The position numbers were made by a program, and so were the translations under genes. The notes under the pieces were generated by a model, which was not told where the DNA came from, made no database searches, and saw only the letters and a list, made by a program, of their open reading frames with translations. Below are positions 1,202-56,260 of a stretch of DNA of 64,000 bases, piece after piece; the first letter of the stretch is position 1, and the number at the start of each line of letters is the position of its first letter. The stretch lies in the NCBI GenBank assembly GCA_951406725.2, contig OX597819.1, positions 118,544,001 to 118,608,000 of the forward strand. The letters run 5' to 3'. Origin of the DNA: Octopus vulgaris (Eukaryota).

Positions 1202-2570
1202 TGTGTACAGTGCTCAGGTGCACTACAACTCATCTAAAGTGTATATATAATCAGGTGTAGTTTCGACGGATTTCGGGAAGCATGAGGGCCTTAAAGGATG
1301 CAGTGTCATGACAGTCAACAACTGATGCAGGCAGTTTATTCCACGCTTCAGCAACCCTGAGCGTGAAAAAATGTTTCCGAAAGTCATGGGAGCTGTGCTG
1401 TTTTCTGACTTTGTAGGCATGTCCACGTGTGTTAGACACATGGAGATCAAAAAGGTGTTCAGTGTTGTTGTTGGTGAGGTGGTTGATAACCTTGTGGGTG
1501 TTTACCAAGTCCGTCGCCAGACTCCGGAGCTTCAGTGAATCCATGCCCAGGGAAACAAGGCGCTCAGAATATAGTAGGTGTCTGATGGAGGGTATGCGTT
1601 TGTTGCACGTCTCTGGACAGATTCCAGGAGGTCAATGTTCTGAGCAAGATAGGGATTCCAAACTGATGATGCGAATTCCAAGTGTGGTCGTACCATAGCT
1701 GTATACAGTTTTAAATAGATGGCTGGAGAGCGGCTAACAAAAGTCTTGCTGAGTGATGCCAAGACACCCTCGGCCTTCTTGACAATTTTAGAGATATGCT
1801 TTGTCCAACGCAAATCACTGCTGACAGTGATGCCTAGGTCACGCTCGCAAGTGGATTTCTTGATATCAGTGTTGTGGAGGGAGTATGTGGACGCAGGGTT
1901 TTTTCTCCCAAAATGCATGGTGGTACACTTGTCCACAGCCAGTTTCAGTTGCCAGTCTGTGATCCATTGCTGCATTGTGTCCAGGTCTGATTGCAGGAAA
2001 GAGTTGTAGGCATCAGGATCAGTCCTCTTGATTTCAAGGTACAGCTTGATGTCGTCTGCATATTTCAATACTGTGGCATTCTTTAAATTGGCATCTATGT
2101 CATTAATGTATGCCACAAACAGGAGGGGACCAAGGACAGATCCCTGTGGTACACCCGATGACATCTCATATGGTGTAGAGTGCTGTCCTAGAACTGTGAC
2201 TACCTCCTTTCGGCTGAGGATGAAGGATTTCAACCAGTTAAAAAGGTCATCCCCCAGACCCATTGCAGAGAGTTTCACCATAAGCCTTTTGTGTGGCACA
2301 GAGTTGAAAGCCTTAGCAAAGTCAAGGTAGACAACATCCACCCATGAGCCACTGTCAGTGATCTGAGTAATGTCCTCAAGGAACTCGACAAGCTGGTCAC
2401 TGCAGCTGGAGTTAGGGACAAATCCATATTGTGAGGGTCGGATGAGACTGTGAGAGCTCCAGAAGTTCCAGAGTATTTCTCTGACACACGATTCCATCAG
2501 TTTTGCAATACAGCTAGTGAGACTGACTGGGCGATAGTTGACAGGTGATGTGCGGTCACCCTTTTTGAAC
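1201..2570 (-). mobile_element. 5'-truncated CR1/L2/Jockey-group non-LTR retrotransposon (RT + C-terminus) with one frameshift
   Basis: Motifs NYRPVSLTS, LDFAKAF, GVPQGSVLGPLLF, YADD, ERDLGI, RPHLEFASSVWNP and FFTLRVAEAWNKLP. Adding one T at 1599-1601 fuses ORF 1532..2665 to ORF 1251..1544 (RRATKRIPSIRHLLYSERLVSLGMDSL). The ORF N-terminus before FKKGDR is microsatellite-derived. Confidence 0.93.
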
Positions 2571-2976
2571 ATATGTGTGTGCGTGCCAGCGTGTGTGTGT
2601 ATAAATATACACTTGTATATATTTGTGTGTGTACTTAAAAAGATAGATAATGTTGGAAAAGGCACAAACTTCTATTTTGCAGTTTGTTTAATATTTGTGT
2701 TATAGTGAGTGATTTAAAGTATAACCGGTTTCGATGTATTTCTCTCCTCCAGGGTTAACCAAAGGAAACAAATATATCAACCGCTTGTACCCATGTTTTA
2801 GTTCATAGGGAAATTGTTCTTAAGAGTCATTCCTTATAAGTGCCTTGGCTTAGCAGCCTGTGCAAAAGAAATATATATACGTCTTGTCTACGTAGGTTTG
2901 AGGTGGAGTTCAAGATTTCAGGTTTCAGGAATTCTATTGCAGAGAAGTCTTTTGAATTTTATACATGGTTTCTGTT

Positions 2977-3187
2977 TTTCTACTCTAGGCACAAGGCCCG
3001 AAATTTTAGGGGTGGGGGCCAGTCGATTAGATCGACTCTAGTACGCAACTGGCGCTAAATTTATCGATGCCGAAGGATAAAAGGCAAAGTCGACGTCGGC
3101 GGAAATAGAGCTCAGAACCTAAAGACTGTTTAAATACCGCTTAGAATTTAGCCCGGCGTACGAACGTTTCTGCTAGCTCGCCGCCTA
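2977..3187 (-). mobile_element. tRNA-derived SINE (AGGCGGCGAGCTGGC-head family; central GCCTTTCATCCTTTCGGGGTCGATAAA-type domain, Meta-SINE-like)
   Basis: Homologous to 3526-3760. 10-bp TSD GGTTTCTGTT at 2967-2976 and 3188-3197. Confidence 0.8.
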
Positions 3188-3259
3188 GGTTTCTGTTCAG
3201 GATGTGGCCAGCTGTGTGTTTTTAGAATATATTGACAAAAACATTAAAAAAAATATGAA

Positions 3260-3302
<43 letters not shown>

Positions 3303-3342
3303 TCATATACATTCTATTGGACGCCCATGAATACCCGAATAC

Positions 3343-3510
3343 TTATTTCTTTATTACCCACAAGGGGCTAAACACAGAGGGGACAAACAAGGACAGACAT
3401 AGGTATTAAGTCGATTACATCGACCCCAGTGCGTAACTGGTACTTAATTTATCGACCCCGAAAGGATGGAAGGCAAAGTCGACCTCGGCGGAATTTGAAC
3501 TCAGAACGTA
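3343..3510 (-). mobile_element. SINE of the same family, head missing
   Basis: Reverse complement matches about 3588-3755. Confidence 0.85.
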
Positions 3511-3525
3511 GATTAATATGCTTTA

Positions 3526-3760
3526 AGGCGGTGAGCTGGCAGAACCGTTAAGCACGCTGGGCGAAATGCGTAGCCTTATTTCGTCTGCCGTTACGTTCTG
3601 AGTTCAAATTCCGCCGAGGTCGACTTTGCCTTTCCTCCTTTCGGGGTCGATAAATTAAGTACCAGTTACACACTGGGTCGATGTCATCGACTTAATCCGT
3701 TTGTCTGTCCTTGTTTGTTCTCTCTGTGTTTACCCCTTTTGTGTAGTAAAGAAACAGTTT
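3526..3760 (+). mobile_element. SINE of the same family, full length
   Basis: tRNA-like head with B-box GAGTTCAAATTCC. 15-bp TSD GATTAATATGCTTTA at 3511-3525 and 3761-3775. Confidence 0.9.
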
Positions 3761-4100
3761 GATTAATATGCTTTATTTGTATATTGTATAGTTATGCATG
3801 TAACCATATTTTTGTTCCATTCTAAACAAAAATATCCGAAGAAAAGAAACGTAAATCTCTGAATAACAGTTTTTGAGATATTTCTCGTGCTCTATAATAT
3901 AATATATATATATATATATATATACATATATACATATATATATTCATATATATATATACATATATATATGTATATATATCAATATAGGGTAGCAAAAAAA
4001 TTCAAGAAAAAATTCAAGAAAAATTTTCTGCAACCAGCGGTCAAGTGAGAAAATAGAAATAGTCACAGACTATATAATATATTCAACAAAATATTAAGGA

Positions 4101-4281
4101 AAGACCCTTACAGTCATTCGACTCACTTGAAAAGAGCAGCCAAAACTCTAACCGCAAAAATAGTAGTAATTCTGAAAGCTAAATGAGAAATAAAATTGTC
4201 CTTTAGCTTTCAGAATTACTACTATTTTTGCGGTTAGAGTTTTGGCTGCTCTTTTTAAGTGAGTCGAATGACCTGTAAGGG

Positions 4282-4285
<4 letters not shown>
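4101..4285. repeat. Long inverted repeat (fold-back) with ~83-bp arms and 18-nt spacer
   Basis: 4101-4183 matches the reverse complement of 4202-4285 with 2 substitutions and 1 indel. Confidence 0.95.
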
Positions 4286-4332
<47 letters not shown>

Positions 4333-4396
4333 TAAATGAGGTACTCAGAAGATCGGATGTTTTATATTTACAGATATTCATTTGTATATTACATTT

Positions 4397-4434
<38 letters not shown>

Positions 4435-4956
4435 TATCACTTAGATCATTAGCGCTTTCTCCAATTCTAGTGGGGTTTTCAAATCAAACTAAGTTCCTGT
4501 GTGAGGAGCTTTGACCAATTTATAGAGTTTGTAGTGGTGGGGAGGAATATAAGACAGTACAAGAGGGTGATGGATGAGGAGAAAGTGCGAGAGAGAACAT
4601 GTGTGTATGTGTGTTTTTGTATTTGGGATGGTGCTAAAGAAAAAGAGGGGAAGGGAGAGGGAAGAAGAAGAAAATAATTTTTTCTTTTTTGGTCTGCTGG
4701 ACAGAATATTGACTCCAAGGGGGTTCTAAGGCCTTGGGGAAAAAAAGAAAGAATTTCAGTTTTGACCACTTCACGGTGTCACTGAGTGTGTGCTGGCAGG
4801 GAGGTAGGCCATAAATTATATTTCCTTTTATCATTGTGAGAGAGTGCGTGTGTGTGTGCGTGTGTGTGTGTGTGCGTGTGTGGGTGTCTGTGAGTTTGGA
4901 GAAGGGAAGAGAGAAAAAGAGGGAGGAAGGGGAAAAATTGTGTTGATATTTATACC

Positions 4957-5000
<44 letters not shown>

Positions 5001-5144
5001 CAGAAATTCGGGGTGAGTACTTGATAATTGTAAGCACCTGTATATGCTGTTGCCGCATTACGTCGTACGCGAATGAGAGGATTTGCATCCCTAACCAAGA
5101 ATATTTGATGTAATACATGTCCTTGAGGAAGTAGTTGTGCGCGG

Positions 5145-5214
5145 CTGAAGAAGGCCACAGACACACATTATGCATTGTTATAAATCCATCTAATAAAGGC
5201 CCGAAACATATGTA
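5145..5214 (+). ncRNA. Hammerhead-like motif with helix I disrupted
   Basis: CTGAAGA-AGGCC...GGCCC-GAA-ACATATGT-A. Stem III is palindromic and the triplet is GUA. It lies in an insert between (TA)n tracts. Confidence 0.5.
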
Positions 5215-5344
5215 CATAAAATTTTAATAATTTGAAACTGATTTATTGGAAGTCCACCTGAATCCTTGGCCTATTTATTAAAATTTTATGTTTTTATTTT
5301 TCCTTGATTAATTTTTTATATATATATATATATATATTTTTTCC

Positions 5345-5385
<41 letters not shown>

Positions 5386-5703
5386 TAATAAATAAAATAA
5401 AACATATGCATATATATAAACATATATGTACGTACCTACCTCTACATGTACATATACACGCATATATGAGTACAGGACACCAAAAGGACGTCGACACAAT
5501 GTGAAACGAAAACATAGACACAAAACAAAGGAACTGGACATTTATTGAAAAACAGCAAAATAATAGAGTACAGGACAATTAACACAAAGACATGCTTATA
5601 CATGAAATATTAGAAAAAAACCCCACCTTTTATCGATTCAAAATGAACAGTCAAATTACACCATCCTGAAAATTGCATATCATATATATCATATATATCA
5701 TAT

Positions 5704-5749
<46 letters not shown>

Positions 5750-5771
5750 CATACATACAAGTATATATATT

Positions 5772-5814
<43 letters not shown>

Positions 5815-5818
5815 ATAT

Positions 5819-5923
<105 letters not shown>

Positions 5924-8768: not shown

Positions 8769-8939
8769 CAATTCCTCATGCAGTTCTATATTTAGGAATG
8801 AGAACCAAGGTCCGAAATTTCACGAAAACATCTGATGAAGGCTGGGGGGGTATATCAGCCGAAACGTTGTGTTAACATCAAACAAGATGAGAACAAATAT
8901 CCGTCAATTGTAAATAATGTAAATAATGTGCAATTCCTC
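8769..8939 (+). mobile_element. Hammerhead-bearing SINE-like element, 5'-truncated copy
   Basis: Homologous to the reverse complements of 35910-36070 and 55993-56156. Confidence 0.8.
8827..8873 (+). ncRNA. Minimal type I hammerhead ribozyme
   Basis: AACAT-CTGATGA-A-GGCTG-(11 nt)-CAGCC-GAA-ACGT-T-GTGTT. Helix I is AACAT/GTGTT, stem II is 5 bp, stem III is the palindrome ACGT, and the triplet is GUU. Confidence 0.8.
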
Positions 8940-32750: not shown

Positions 32751-32812
32751 ATTTGTATGCATGTACGTATGTATGTAGGTAGGTATATGTGTGTATATAT
32801 ATACATATATAT

Positions 32813-33043
32813 ATTTCTTTACTACCCACAAGGAGCTAAACATAGAGGGGACAAGCAAGGACAGACAAAGGGATTACGTCGATTATATTGACCCCATTGC
32901 GAAATTGGTATTTTATTTATCGACCCCGAAAGGATGAAAGGCAAAGTCGACCTCGGCGGAATTTGAACTCAGAACGTAACGACAGACGAAATACCGCTAA
33001 GCATTTCGCCCGGCGCGCTAACGTTTCAGCCCGCTCACCACCT
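32813..33043 (-). mobile_element. SINE, full length (family of 3526-3760)
   Basis: Reverse complement is collinear with 3526-3755. Confidence 0.85.
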
Positions 33044-33496
33044 ATATATATACATATATAGATGTATGTATCTGTGTATGGATGTACGTGTATTAGTGTG
33101 TGTATGTGTGTATGTGATTGTGTGTGTGCTTGTGCTGCACATACACAACCATAAAGTCATTTGATAAAGAACTGATACCTCAAGACTTCAGACTAAAACC
33201 TCTATGGTATTAGTGAAATTATTTTCCCCTCTTATCTCATATTACGTATGGCTTTTAGCTTATCATATAACACACAAGGGCACATTAATGTTTGGATAGA
33301 CCAGGTTTTCTATGCATGAACCAGTTAAATTTTATTGCAACGAGGTTCAGTGTGACCCGATAGCCGGTTAGTCGGCTGTAGTTCCTTTCAGTAGAAACTT
33401 TAATCCCATGGTGTATATATGCATATCTATATGTATGCACACAACACACACAAGCACACACAACACACACACACACACACAGACACACAGACACAG

Positions 33497-35909: not shown

Positions 35910-36165
35910 TTCTATATTTAAGAGATATGGAATTATGTACATTATTTACATTCCAGGCATATTTCTCCTCATCTTGTTATTTGTTAATACAACGTTTCGG
36001 ATGATATACCCTCCAGGCTTCATCACGTGTCTTGGGGAAATTTCGGACCTGGGTTCTCACTACTAAGGTATTTTTCGATGTTGTTTTTGTTAATATTATT
36101 ATTATTCAGGTCACTGCCAAGAATCGAACTCCGAATCTTGAGGTTAGTAGCCCGTGCTCTTTTTA
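35910..36165 (-). mobile_element. tRNA-headed hammerhead-bearing SINE-like element
   Basis: Minus strand: gagcacgggctactaacc...GAGTTCGATTC (B-box), (AAT)n linker, mutated HHR at 35986-36031, then a 3' body shared with 8874-8939. Confidence 0.8.
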
Positions 36166-36459: not shown

Positions 36460-37620
36460 TCAACAATGCGGAAATTTTATTCATCAGAGGAAGTATCATT
36501 ATAATCAACACATTTTTGCGAACGAATTACATGTTTGTTTATTCCGGTAACATAAAAAATCTGGATTTTTGGAGCTGATGAACTCTTTGAACGCACTTTC
36601 AGCATCGGTTCGATTTTTGAACTTCTCTCGCAGGAAACCATCAATTTGCTTGAAAAAGTGGTAGGAGAAAGGTTTGGGTAATAAGATGGTTGAAGAAGAA
36701 CTTCGTTGCCAAGTTCCTTCAACTTCTTGAGCACTATTAGCCAGGGGTTTGGTCGAGCATTGTCACGAGGAATTATTGGTTCTCTTCCGATGACCAGTCT
36801 GATACAGAGGAGTTGCAGTTCATTTTTCGTTCATTTTGGCAAATTCATGCCACTTTGTTTCTCCAATAATATCTTTTCCCGGGTTTCAAGAAGCAATAGC
36901 TGATAAGGCCAGCACTACACCACTACACAGTCATCATAACCTTCTTTTTGACGAGTTCGGATTTAGGGAAGGTTTTTGCTGCTTCATTTTGGTCCAACCA
37001 CTGCAAAGAAGGTTTTTTTCTATGATTGTACAGAATCTACTTTTCATTGCATGTTACAATACAGACGAGAAATTGATCGGTCTGGTTACGAACAAGAAGC
37101 AACGTGCAATTTTCATATCTGCACATTTTCTGATTTTCATTCAAGTTGTCGAGCTTTCTTGATTTTCCGATCGCATGCAATTTACTGCAGGCAGTTTTCC
37201 GGCTAATTTGAAGCACTTTTGTCACTTCTCGACTGATTTCCCGTGGATGTTTAACAATGACCGTCTTTAATTGATGGCGTCCACTACGCTCACGATTTTC
37301 AAGTCTCAGCTCTCCTCTGCGAAATCGTTTAAACCATTTTCGAGCTAACTACTCACTGATCATTTCCTCACCAAACGTTTCGTTGATATCGTGAGCAGTT
37401 TCAGTTGTTTACGTCTGTGTTTGAGGTTGAAGAGCAAAATTTCTCGAATATCGCACTTTGGCAATTCCATTTCATTTGTAACAAAAGTGAAAAAATGTCA
37501 TTGTTAATTTATTGATGCGTTTGGGCAAATCTATGTCTATTATTAGACCATTATATCTATTATCAAACAATTGCAAAAAATTGGATGAAAATACACTTAA
37601 AATTCTGCAAAGATCCGTTA
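36460..37620 (-). mobile_element. Decayed mariner (Mos1/Hsmar-like) transposase
   Basis: ENQKMCRYENCTLLLVRN...IVTCNEK (IVT.DEKW), a HDNARP-like segment, and LKELGNEVLLQPSYYPNLSP (HPPYSPDL). Confidence 0.85.
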
Positions 37621-38647
37621 CAAATGCTTCATTGTTTAAAGCGTTGCCTACTTTTTACTCATACTGATATATTATTATCCCGCCCACAAGCTTATTTATT
37701 TATTTATTTATTTGTGTATGTATACACATATATGTATGTATTTTGTAAATTCATGCCACTTTGTTTCTCCAATAATCATCTTTTCCCGGGTTTCAAGAAG
37801 CAATAGCTGATAAGGCCAGCACTACACCACTACACAGTCATCATAACCTTCTTTTTGACGAGTTCGGATTTAGGGAAGGTTTTTGCTGCTTCATTTTGGT
37901 CCAACCACTGCAAAGAAGGTTTTTTTCTATGATTGTACAGAATCTACTTTTCATTGCATGTTACAATACAGACGAGAAATTGATCGGTCTGGTTACGAAC
38001 AAGAAGCAACGTGCAATTTTCATATCTGCACATTTTCTGATTTTCATTCAAGTTGTCGAGCTTTCTTGATTTTCCGATCGCATGCAATTTACTGCAGGCA
38101 GTTTTCCGGCTAATTTGAAGCACTTTTGTCACTTCTCGACTGATTTCCCGTGGATGTTTAACAATGACCGTCTTTAATTGATGGCGTCCACTACGCTCAC
38201 GATTTTCAAGTCTCAGCTCTCCTCTGCGAAATCGTTTAAACCATTTTCGAGCTAACTACTCACTGATCATTTCCTCACCAAACGTTTCGTTGATATCGTG
38301 AGCAGTTTCAGTTGTTTACGTCTGTGTTTGAGGTTGAAGAGCAAAATTTCTCGAATATCGCACTTTGGCAATTCCATTTCATTTGTAACAAAAGTGAAAA
38401 AATGTCATTGTTAATTTAGTGATGCGTTTGGGCAAATCTATGTCTATTATTAGACCATTATATCTATTATCAAACAATTGCAAAAAATTGGATGAAAATA
38501 CACTTAAAATTCTGCAAAGATCCGTTACAAATGCTTCATTGTTTAAAGCGTTGGCTACTTTTTACTCATACTGATATATTATTATCCCGCCCACAAGCTT
38601 ATTTATTTATTTATTTATTTGTGTATGTATACACATATATGTATGTA
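36841..38647. repeat. Near-identical ~907-bp tandem duplication
   Basis: 36841-37740 matches 37747-38647. Identical ORFs are offset by 907 (36976/37883 and 37037/37944). I spotted only 1 indel and 2 substitutions. Confidence 0.95.
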
Positions 38648-39751
38648 TGTATGTGTGCGATATGATCCCGCACAGTTATCCCCAACTGAATGCGATTGCC
38701 AAGATATTGAAGAACGACGGTGATATAATAGAACGCGCTGATACATATATATTGAAACCCGTACCACGCATTTACCACCTATGAACAATCAGGAACAATA
38801 AGCCACGTAATATAGATGAAAATATAAAATACAAAACAAGAGCTAATGACATATTTTAAACGTCAGTTAACTTGCTAGAGGGAAAATACTATTTAAGAAA
38901 CCATAAATACACAAAAACTGGGTAATGAAAAACTAATTCAATGTGATAGAGAAGGAAATGACAGCGATAAAGATACATATAAAAAAATTAAAAAGCGCTC
39001 AATATGGTGCAAGAGATTCAGAAAAAAATTCTATTAAAGAACAGAAAATATTTTACCTTATTCTAAATCATATACAAAGGCAGAGAAGTTATTTACTCAC
39101 AAGTAAAATAATTTTAGTGCAATAACTTATGCCCTATTCTCGTGGGCTTAGAAAAAATATTTAGCACTTAAAAAAGTGTCTCATTTTCTTTACACTTTGC
39201 TTCAAATTGAACGATAAATGGAAGAAAATTTAAAAACATCGAACTGATCTCTATATTAGTTGAATTTTAATGTTAGAAAACGGCCCGGAGATAAAAGCGA
39301 TATTACATACAGACTATATTGCTTGCAAATTTACTGCATGAAAAGTTTTACATTTCAGCATACGAGGGAAATCATTTCATGTTGAAATTGCATTTAGTGT
39401 ATCTCCGTATTTTATGTATTTTTACTGGAGCTATAATTTCAAATTAGTCGTGAACTCACATTCGCATATACACATCGACACAGAAACATCCCTATGCATC
39501 GGCATACATGTATAACTATATATATATATCTGTGTGTGTGTGTGTGTGCTCGTATGTATTCGTAAATGTGTGTATTTGTGCGTACGTATATATATATATA
39601 CATATTCTATATATACGATATATTCTCTCTCCCTCTCTCTCAATATATATATATATATATATATCAATATATACGTATATATAAATGTCTATATGTACAT
39701 ACATATTTGTATGTATATCTATTTATATCTATACCAATCTATACACACACA

Positions 39752-41382: not shown

Positions 41383-41424
41383 GACGGTCAAAAATTGTGA
41401 AGCATGACTGTCACCACTACTACA

Positions 41425-41469
41425 TGAACCTGAAGATTGCAGAATTTAATGCATGAAAGTACTAGTTCA
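41425..41469 (+). ncRNA. Minimal type I hammerhead ribozyme
   Basis: TGAAC-CTGAAGA-T-TGCA-GAATTTAA-TGCA-T-GAA-AGTACT-A-GTTCA. Perfect 5-bp helix I, palindromic stem III, CUA triplet. Confidence 0.8.
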
Positions 41470-41564
41470 ATCAGAATGAACATTTAACATTCTATTATTT
41501 TATTTTATTTTATTTAAGATTGTAAATAAAACGTGAAAATCAGACAAGGTTGGAATTCCATTTA

Positions 41565-47564: not shown

Positions 47565-47609
<45 letters not shown>

Positions 47610-47737
47610 TAATATATATTTATGATATATATATTTATATATATTTATATATATATATATATATATTCGCCATGATAGATCGCTAGCCACTACACATTCT
47701 CTACTTTTATCTCCTTGTTTCTTTCTTTCTTTCTTTC

Positions 47738-48333
47738 TGTCTTGCTTCGGGAACTGCATTAGGTATGATTAGTTAAATTTTGGTAGTAATGACTTATGTC
47801 CCTCTTAGCGTGTGGCATTTATGTGTAATAATGCCCTCTATACAATATAAATAAATATTTTCAAGTGAAAAAATTATTTTCGAATTTTTTCTCTTATGAG
47901 GTTTTTCACGCTAACTACCTGATAATTTCTTGTTAAGATTACTTATTAAGATTTTATCCTTAATTGTTAAATTTATTCCGAAGAAAAACTTTTCCTGCCG
48001 ACATGCAGTTCGAAAAAGCTCGCCATTTACCGAATATATGATGAATAAACATTTCCATGTGCTTCGCCGAGGGGAGCAGATGTCTGTTTGGCCTCACTAG
48101 TTATGTTGGTTGTTTATTTATGATGTGTTCAGAATATGTTCTACTGATGAACAAAATACGTATTTGATACGTTAATTGCGAAATCACAGGTGATATAGAA
48201 GTAAATTCAGTTTTTTAAATGTCTTGCTTCGGGAACTGCATTAGGTATGATTAGTTAAATTTTGGTAGTAATGACTCATGTCCCTCTTAGCGTGTGGCAT
48301 TTATGTGTAATAATGCCCTCTATACAATATAAA
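47738..48333 (+). mobile_element. Retrozyme/pLTR-like element: 482-nt unit bounded by 114-bp direct repeats, containing a hammerhead
   Basis: 47738-47851 matches 48220-48333 with 1 mismatch. Non-coding and ends in (TA)n. Confidence 0.75.
48139..48200 (+). ncRNA. Type I hammerhead ribozyme
   Basis: TTCTA-CTGATGA-ACAA..ACGTAT-TTG-ATACGT..TTGC-GAA-ATCAC-AG-GTGAT-A-TAGAA. AUA triplet and an A.C mismatch at the base of stem II. Confidence 0.8.
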
Positions 48334-48334
48334 C

Positions 48335-48365
<31 letters not shown>

Positions 48366-48463: not shown

Positions 48464-48672
48464 TATATATATGTATATTTTTATGTATATATATATATGT
48501 AAATATATATGTATGTACGTATATATAGTTGTGTATGTACGTATATATGTGTGTGTCTGTGGAAGTGTTTGTGACTTTATAAAAGCAATTCTGTTGTATA
48601 TTTCAACTTGCATGGGTTGCTGGGATTGATTCTAATAACAGGTGTCTTGTACAATTATAAATTTCTGCAGAT

Positions 48673-48906
48673 TTATTTCTTTATTACCCACCGGGGGCTT
48701 AACATATAGGGGACAGACAAGGACAGACAAACGGATTATGTCGATTACATTTTGACTCCAGTACGTAACTGGTACTTATTGTATCGACCCTGAAACGATG
48801 AAAGGCAAAGTCGACCTGGGCGGAATTTGAACTCAGAAAGCAAATGCAGACGAAATACCGCTAAGCATGTCGTCCAGCGTGCTAAGCATTCTGCCAGCTC
48901 GCCGCC
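48673..48906 (-). mobile_element. SINE, full length (family of 3526-3760)
   Basis: Collinear with 32813-33043. Confidence 0.85.
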
Positions 48907-49723
48907 CAATTTATACCATATATTGAGTAAACTTTGATTGGCAGAAAGCATTGAGATGTTAGTCAAATGCATTGTGTCTGTAATTCCAAGTGACAGCATT
49001 GTCATTCATGCCTGAGGAATTCTTTTAAGATTAAACATGTGTGTGTAGAATATATAGAATGAGGTTTCAGCACTGATTCCCCTCCCCAATATCTCTTACT
49101 AAATGCGTTAACTTGTCCATATGTACCAGGTCGGAACTATGTTGCCTGAGATACACCAGAACGTTAGTAATTTAATTATCCAATTACTTCAGTACTTTAG
49201 TATATCGAGTTGGAATCCTATAATTAAAACAACCACATATAACTACATAGATAAATACATACAATCACATCGACGTACGTACACTTTGCTCTCTTATATG
49301 TAATTATATATTTATCTAAATCCTGTACGACTCTCTTCTTTTATTCTTTCCTTCTATCTATCAACTCTTTCTCGCTGACTTCGTTCAATCCACCCTTCTT
49401 TCTTTTGTTCCCCCTCTCTCATATTTCCTTGCCTTCTCCTCATGCTCACTTTCCCCCCCTCTTTTCACATCAGTGTGTCTCTGTCTTTTTCTCTCGACCC
49501 TCCTTAATTCTTCCGTCACTCTCCTTCTACATCTCTCTCTTCTCTCTTCACATGACAGGTTTTCCGCTAAGCATGACCTTTCTTTCTTGGTTCGGCCATC
49601 GTCCGTGTAACATCTATATCCCTCCCTGTGCCTGTGAAATCTTGTTCAAATTCCGACGAGGTTTACTTCGCCTTTCATCCTTTCGGGGTCAATAATTTCG
49701 GGCCTTGCGCCTAGAGTAGAAAA

Positions 49724-55992: not shown

Positions 55993-56260
55993 CAGTTCTA
56001 TATTTAAGAGATGAGGAATTATTATGTACATTATTTACATTCGACGGATATCCGTCCTCATCTTGTTTGCTGTTAACACAACGTTTCGGCTAATATACCC
56101 TCCAGCCTTTTTCAGGTGTCTTGGTAAAATTTCGAACCTGGTTCTCATTCCTAAGTATTTTTGTGGTGTTATTATTATTATTGCTGTTATTGTTGTTTTT
56201 ATTGTTCAGATCACTGCTTGGAATCGAACTCGGAATATTGGGGTTTATCCACTACTCCAT
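55993..56260 (-). mobile_element. tRNA-headed hammerhead-bearing SINE-like element
   Basis: Minus strand A-box TGGAGTAGTGG (56249-56259), B-box GAGTTCGATTCC, (AAT/AAC)n linker, and HHR at 56075-56120 (core CTGAAAA, mutated). Confidence 0.8.

What the first reader, a model, noticed from the sequence alone, without database searches (positions are those of the whole stretch)
47738..48333. Retrozyme-like 482-nt unit: longer-than-unit copy with a hammerhead next to the repeat junction
Seen: a 114-bp direct repeat (1 mismatch) spaced 482 bp, no meaningful ORF, and a well-formed HHR at 48139-48200 (CUGAUGA, extended stem II, AUCAC/GUGAU stem III, predicted cut after 48195). The repeat starts 24 nt after the predicted cut, so the 5' end of the insertion lies just downstream of where an upstream HHR copy would cleave. 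It truncates another HHR-family repeat (47668-47737) just before that repeat's own ribozyme and ends in (TA)n. Inference: a ~1.24-mer copy of a self-cleaved tandem or circular RNA, as in non-LTR retrozymes or PLE pLTR tandems. This predicts a ~482-nt linear or circular RNA.
Basis: partly seen in the sequence, partly recalled or inferred. Interest (0 to 1): 0.75.

Follow-up and report, generated by a model that had tools for sequence, protein, structure and literature searches.

The report
Penelope-inserted hammerhead retrozyme copy
This is one single-ribozyme copy of a large, still-spreading family of protein-free repeats with a predicted self-cutting RNA, and the family's insertion ends (two fixed start points, one on each arm of every scored back-to-back pair but two) suggest that a Penelope-type enzyme writes them into TA repeats by copying one RNA, likely a circle, from both ends of the cut DNA.

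Summary
The 114-bp repeat, 482-bp period, lack of an ORF and the hammerhead are real. The locus is a 1.24-unit copy of a high-copy non-LTR retrozyme family (137 distinct loci studied; units 478-497 nt; arrays up to 12.3 units). The hammerhead stems covary across subfamilies. A48151 is a lineage character, not a decayed G. Copies end in (TA)n at two fixed sites about 126 nt apart (A, B). Of 67 back-to-back pairs with both ends assignable, 65 are A/B and none A/A or B/B. This is the Penelope-like 'tail' signature, about three to four times longer than the published 30-40 bp. Units within an array are near-identical and share private variants with the opposite arm (8 of 8), which points to a one-monomer template, likely circular. 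Not supported: the 5' end as a cleavage mark, since 5' ends are scattered. This copy has one ribozyme and cannot release a monomer itself. Cleavage, circular RNA and the partner enzyme are untested. The scan noted the same pattern on other DNA of this genome. New member of a known kind; interest 0.5.

The parts
47566..47666 (.). (TA)n microsatellite, left flank
47667..47737 (+). Fragment of a second repeat family, cut before its HHR-like motif, with an expanded (TTTC)n; joined to the retrozyme through a 3-nt TGT microhomology. Its 3' half is absent next to the insertion, so this is either a target deletion or a template switch.
47738..48219 (+). One full 482-nt retrozyme unit, predicted highly paired (z -3.9 linear, -4.2 circular against shuffles)
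47814..47850 (+). Hairpin (47814-47835) followed by start site A (about 47846, unit position 109); read through here, used as the 3' end in the second unit
47921..47976 (+). Hairpin (47921-47958) followed by start site B (about 47972, unit position 235), the family's other 3' end, about 126 nt past A
48139..48200 (+). Type I hammerhead ribozyme: CUGAUGA core, extended stem II with A-C at 10.1/11.1, 4-bp stem III, predicted cut after A48195; G48201 in place of the family's C shortens stem I by one pair
48220..48333 (+). Partial second unit ending at site A (about 48328); inferred first-synthesised part of the cDNA
48327..48365 (.). (TA)n target microsatellite, right flank

Best explanation
The locus is a 5'-truncated, one-armed, 1.24-unit insertion of a high-copy non-coding retrozyme with a type I hammerhead, likely written into a (TA)n microsatellite by a Penelope-like reverse transcriptase-endonuclease acting in trans on a monomer RNA that is likely circular. 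Steps. (1) Copies with two or more ribozymes are transcribed and self-cleave to a ~480-nt monomer that is ligated to a circle (inferred from characterised retrozymes; untested here). (2) A PLE protein cuts both strands of (TA)n (the target is shown; the enzyme is inferred). (3) Each DNA end primes cDNA at an internal site, one at A and one at B about 126 nt further 3' (the fixed ends and A/B pairing are shown; priming is inferred from the anole PLE). (4) The RT runs around the template for 0.1 to 12 turns (lengths shown; rolling circle inferred). (5) The cDNA ends are joined by microhomology to each other, giving a tail-out inverted pair, or to the target, giving a one-armed copy like this one (junctions shown). 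This copy holds one ribozyme, so it could not release a monomer by itself.
For: Family: 2,681 candidate places at first look, 40 scored; 137 distinct loci analysed (92). 3' ends: of 57 one-armed loci, 54 end at A or B in (TA)n. Of 80 tail-out inverted pairs, 65 are A/B, 0 A/A, 0 B/B, 1 A/C and 1 B/C (C is a minor site at unit position 209), and 13 have one unassignable end. Chance of 65 of 65 discordant at even odds is about 3e-20 (my arithmetic). Two internal RT start sites bounding a 'tail' are the PLE hallmark (PMC11167929); the 30-40-bp tail is often at one end only, and (TA)n bias is reported (PMC8557442 passages). Intact, very young PLEs exist in this genome: 775-781-aa RT + C-terminal GIY-YIG ORFs, and 40 of 40 scored copies of one family are about 100% identical. 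They also end in (TA)n at two sites 34-41 nt apart. Monomer template: 77 units in 19 array arms differ by 1.3 substitutions within an arm against 8.9 between arms; the 11 full units of L242 are 5-22 substitutions from every other sampled array; 8 of 8 rare alleles fixed in all units of a long arm are also in the opposite arm. 5' ends are spread over the whole unit. The ribozyme structure is conserved.
Against: No cleavage, RNA or circle was shown. The isolated hammerhead fold is not the energy minimum in this copy, and the 10.1/11.1 pair is a mismatch in most copies. Of nine predicted Xenopus retrozyme dimers only one cleaved in vitro (10.64898/2026.07.22.740005). No sequence homology links the unit to any PLE sampled (46 GIY-YIG loci, where the two strong hits were separate retrozyme insertions; 8 loci), so the partner is unidentified, and the tail is three to four times longer than in those PLEs. 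In the first set, 5' ends are enriched in the 24 nt just 3' of the cut (13 of 45 against 3 of 47 just 5' of it, Fisher p=0.006), and the 7.5-unit array L194 starts at the cut. So some templates may be cleaved linear RNAs; the adjacent bin is equally high (10 of 27), and the set is biased by the queries. L194 shows a period-4 pattern among its units, which a monomer circle does not explain. The anole PLE showed no difference in start site between the two strands in vitro, and used uncleaved RNA.
Confidence: 0.75

Rival explanations
1. Same PLE-driven insertion, but the template is a linear, partly cleaved or uncleaved tandem transcript from source arrays. No circle is needed, and array homogeneity comes from homogeneous sources.
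For: Hammerhead cleavage was dispensable for the anole PLE in vitro. L194 and L133 begin at the cut. Excess of 5' ends just 3' of the cut in the first set. Period-4 variation in L194.
Against: Private substitutions fixed in all units of a young array and in its opposite arm need a one-monomer bottleneck at some step. 1 of 76 5' ends lies at the cut in the youngest subfamily. Array-to-array transmission would preserve unit-to-unit differences, and no shared order of variants was evident (not formally tested).
Confidence: 0.17
2. The unit is the detached pLTR of an autonomous PLE. Dispersed copies are 5'-truncated PLE ends, and arrays grew locally by unequal crossing-over (the scenario discussed in 10.64898/2026.07.22.740005).
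For: PLE-type ends and targets; retrozyme-pLTR homology was reported for 24 of 57 Xenopus families.
Against: Upstream of the ribozyme every long copy continues into more unit; pairwise comparison of flanks at the first 30 loci showed no shared ORF-like extension. Arrays are dispersed over many contigs with exact A/B ends, and both inverted arms can be multimeric. No homology to sampled PLEs. An ancestral pLTR origin is not excluded.
Confidence: 0.06
3. A local duplication or assembly artefact with a chance hammerhead-like motif.
For: No Rfam hit; weak isolated fold.
Against: The same 1.2- to 1.5-unit anatomy occurs at dozens of loci on many contigs; covariation; conserved core with free N7.
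Confidence: 0.02

Closest known systems
Metazoan non-LTR retrozymes (Cervera and de la Pena 2020, PMC7229834; coral, mussel, axolotl)
   Same: Non-coding tandem units with one type I hammerhead each, low GC, highly paired fold, dimers to multimers, coexisting with PLEs. U-U at the base of stem II as in axolotl HHR_Amex2. Their proposed cycle is an RT making tandem cDNA from a circle.
   Different: Unit 478-497 nt, above their 170-400 nt for invertebrates, though within the 51-972 bp of the 2026 preprint. Cleavage and circles are shown there and untested here. In the parts I read they name PLEs as a candidate mobiliser without describing two fixed ends or A/B inverted arms.
Penelope-like elements with endonuclease (anole Poseidon PAc, PMC11167929; Neptune/Naiad anatomy, PMC8557442)
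   Same: Internal initiation at two sites giving a tail, AT-rich or (TA)n targets, 5' truncation, partial tandems, inverted 5' copy, tail at one end.
   Different: No ORF; period about 480 nt rather than 3-4 kb; full-size rather than minimal hammerhead; tail about 126-131 nt rather than 30-40 bp.
Vertebrate non-LTR retrozymes as PLE derivatives (Li, Clavereau, Pollet 2026, 10.64898/2026.07.22.740005)
   Same: Co-occurrence with PLEs; monomers, dimers and multimers.
   Different: They rely on distribution and pLTR homology and discuss local array growth. Here no pLTR homology was found, and the arrays carry insertion ends, which suggests they were made at insertion.

Membership tests
Non-LTR retrozyme | Head-to-tail tandem units of a few hundred bp, dimers to multimers | tested here: met
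   Period 478-497; arrays up to 12.3 units. The window copy itself has 1.24 units.
Non-LTR retrozyme | Type I hammerhead in each unit | tested here: met
   Core intact in 94 of 100 variants; stems covary; no Rfam hit at gathering score
Non-LTR retrozyme | No protein coding, low GC, highly paired RNA | tested here: met
   (z -4.2, -5.1 and -4.7 for three subfamilies; -1.6 for the sampled old copy)
Non-LTR retrozyme | Two consecutive ribozymes in the element (criterion for an active copy) | tested here: not met
   Not met by this locus (one ribozyme); met by relatives such as L003, L007, L194 and L242
Non-LTR retrozyme | Self-cleavage of the transcript | not testable with these tools
   Needs in vitro transcription
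Non-LTR retrozyme | Monomeric linear and circular RNA in vivo | tested here: inconclusive
   Only assembled contigs of runs not on record as RNA were available
PLE-mobilised element | Two fixed 3' ends (tail) with inverted 5'-truncated arm | tested here: met
   65 A/B of 67 assignable pairs; tail about 126-131 nt
PLE-mobilised element | Insertion into AT-rich / (TA)n targets | tested here: met
PLE-mobilised element | Sequence shared with an autonomous partner | tested here: not met
   No homology in 46 GIY-YIG loci plus one further tandem PLE locus; only 30 of 150 scored GIY-YIG matches (6,136 candidates) were fetched as loci, plus 16 longer stretches, so the search is far from complete
Autonomous PLE (pLTR of) | RT + GIY-YIG ORF between the repeats | tested here: not met

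The most novel reading that the evidence does not exclude
A single ~480-nt ribozyme circle is engaged by a dimeric Penelope-like enzyme whose two active sites are placed at two different RNA start sites 126 nt apart, one for each end of the cut DNA. Both then roll around the same circle. The retrozyme has evolved its own long two-hairpin docking module without homology to any PLE, possibly open to several PLE families. This would explain the PLE 'tail at one end only' rule in general and would give a protein-free, circle-based cargo format for PLE insertion.
Probability: 0.35. Interest if true: 0.72.

Novelty: new member of a known kind. Interest (0 to 1): 0.5.

Why it matters
How animal retrozymes get back into DNA has been proposed (circle, RT of a PLE) more than shown. 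This family records the reaction in many young insertions: exact start sites, a near-strict one-A-one-B rule for the two DNA ends, and single-monomer ancestry of whole arrays. These give nucleotide-level predictions for an in vitro assay of the kind already built for the anole PLE, and they argue that arrays are made at insertion rather than by later satellite growth. The locus itself is an ordinary dead-end copy.

Tried and rejected
Rfam scan: no hit. Energy folding of the ribozyme alone: uninformative. Expression: no RNA holder listed. Contigs of five runs guessed to be RNA hold pieces of the family, and two join unit end to unit start, but that junction exists in genomic tandems and contigs cannot show strand, ends or circularity, so I did not use it. 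The locus-specific 5' junction was not covered in three large runs (repeats are skipped there), so presence or absence in other individuals is untested. Search for the autonomous partner: a PLE-specific Pfam family was not in the library. GIY-YIG search plus BLAST gave no homology. Short AT-rich likenesses between unit ends and PLE ends were seen by eye, not tested, and not used. Within-locus against between-locus divergence in older copies: arms share sublineage variants but are not closer than the nearest other locus, so this test does not decide single-molecule copying. '5' end marks the cleavage site' and 'A48151 is a decayed G' were rejected. Literature searches: (0 papers with octopus + Penelope + hammerhead + circular RNA); none listed a paper on this family or on the A/B rule in retrozymes, but the library lacks most subscription papers. 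The word 'octopus' was my recalled guess from the repeat landscape, not a test.

Full report
Observation. The repeat is real: 47738-47851 and 48220-48333, 114 bp, one mismatch, period 482. There is no meaningful ORF. A type I hammerhead can be drawn at 48139-48200 with the cut after A48195. Rfam does not call it and it is not the minimum-energy fold in isolation, so I tested it on relatives. Across 14 variants chosen to span five subfamilies, 92% of cells pair, with double-sided changes in stems I and II and an invariant stem III. Related sequences can beat the shuffle control without structure, but the slid controls are also far lower. In a regex census over 137 loci, CUGANGA is intact in 94 of 100 variants while N7 takes all four bases. 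The triplet is AUA in 91 and AUC in 8. Position 10.1/11.1 is U-U, A-C, A-U, G-C or G-U by lineage. A48151 is thus inherited, not a lesion.

The family. The window lies in a 2.8-Gb genome. The element has 2,681 first-look candidate places (only 40 are scored per search, so this is not a copy number). Four searches with different parts and subfamilies gave 120 loci that collapse to 92 distinct ones. Two searches for long copies gave 45 more that I parsed (one fetched locus, L211, was left out of that count). These samples are the best-scoring hits and are not random. Subfamilies range from the window's own (482 nt) through 478-482-nt relatives to an old 497-nt form that shares 349 of 482 positions. 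The youngest forms dispersed arrays of up to 12.3 near-identical units. No copy continued into a shared ORF-like sequence where I compared flanks (30 loci), and the arrays are bounded by microsatellite or by an inverted arm.

Insertion anatomy. 3' ends fall at two sites, A (unit position about 109) and B (about 235), each just 3' of a predicted hairpin and running into (TA)n. Of 57 one-armed loci, 54 end at A or B. Of 80 tail-out inverted pairs, 65 have one A and one B end, none has A/A or B/B, two involve a minor site C at position 209, and 13 have an end I could not assign. 5' ends are scattered. The window copy is a one-armed A-ended insertion. Its 5' end joins a fragment of another repeat family through TGT, and that family's 3' half is missing locally, which fits either a deletion of target DNA or a template switch.

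What this matches. Two internal RT start sites that bound an optional tail were shown biochemically for an anole PLE, which cuts and extends both strands of AT-rich DNA and is predicted to be a dimer (PMC11167929; I read parts 1-2 of 4, not the supplements). PLE copies are described with partial tandems, an inverted 5'-truncated copy and a 30-40-bp tail often at one end only (PMC8557442; passages only). This genome has intact young PLEs with C-terminal GIY-YIG. They end in (TA)n at two sites 34-41 nt apart, and the one inverted arm found among 20 copies follows the same A/B rule. None of those sampled shares sequence with the unit, so PLE mobilisation is inferred from the footprint.

Template. 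In 19 array arms (77 units), units differ by 1.3 substitutions within an arm and 8.9 between arms. Eight of eight rare alleles fixed in all units of a long arm are also present in the opposite arm; they come from four loci. A one-monomer template copied repeatedly from both DNA ends explains this most simply, and a circle explains read-through of the cut site without a 5' stop. Against this: a modest excess of 5' ends just 3' of the cut in the first set, two copies that begin at the cut (L133, L194), and a period-4 pattern in L194 suggest that linear cleaved or multimeric templates, or later block duplication, also occur.

Known context. Animal non-LTR retrozymes are tandem type I hammerhead units expressed as linear and circular monomers, with PLEs named as the likely mobiliser (PMC7229834; passages and parts 2-4 of 6; its Supplementary Figure S9 on the life cycle was not seen and may bear on the mechanism). 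A 2026 preprint links them to pLTRs (10.64898/2026.07.22.740005; parts 1-3 of 5; supplements closed). The family meets the sequence criteria; cleavage and circles are untested. This locus fails the two-ribozyme criterion for an active copy. My searches listed no paper on this family or on the A/B rule in retrozymes. After I had formed my reading, earlier notes of this scan showed the same interpretation for 360- and 485-495-nt hammerhead repeats elsewhere in this genome; a look-up by this unit's sequence returned nothing. They are not independent support.

Verdict. A new member of a known kind. The locus is an ordinary dead-end copy; the family's footprint makes the proposed retrozyme-PLE mechanism directly testable. 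Interest 0.5.

Noticed in passing
L094:768-2204 and 2126-4468; L282 (reverse strand) 2280-3641 and 3551-5875: Two young PLE families carry a 454-479-aa frame with no clear Pfam match, overlapping the start of the 775-781-aa RT-endonuclease frame. Canonical PLEs have a single ORF, so this may be a frameshift, an intron or a true second ORF.
   Followed up: partly
L262-L281, L282: PLE family with 40 of 40 scored copies about 100% identical, including a head-to-tail tandem with a 4,271-bp period; likely active now.
   Followed up: partly
L194:2431-6061: The 7.5-unit array starts at the predicted cut and shows period-4 variation (unit 2 = unit 6, units 1 and 5 share a substitution, units 3 and 7 are alike), which suggests a tetramer template or a block duplication.
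   Followed up: partly
L033, L160 (unit position 209): Minor third 3' end, C, at a motif that looks like a duplicate of the B motif; it pairs once with A and once with B.
   Followed up: partly
L013, L041, L043, L159: Inverted arms often meet between unit positions about 12-54 and about 238-279, regions that pair with each other in the predicted RNA fold, so joining may use the RNA's own complementarity.
   Followed up: no
window 36835-38648: Tandem duplication of about 907 bp at 99.4% identity.
   Followed up: no
window 8788-8939 (copies at 35932-36066 and 56013-56158): Another repeat family with a CUGAUGA...GAAAC hammerhead-like motif at 8832-8864.
   Followed up: no
window 41405-41500: Minimal hammerhead and flanks that match, by eye, the 3' end of the very young PLE family of L097; likely a truncated PLE end.
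   Followed up: no
window 1532-2671 (-): 379-aa open frame with reverse-transcriptase motifs, LINE-like by recall.
   Followed up: no
window 48671-48926: Dispersed SINE-like repeat with copies at 3343-3506, 3527-3754 and 32809-33062.
   Followed up: no
window 47801-47933: In three large contig sets this part of the unit gathers far more depth than the ribozyme part, so the motifs around site A may be shared by many more diverged relatives (depth is no copy number).
   Followed up: no
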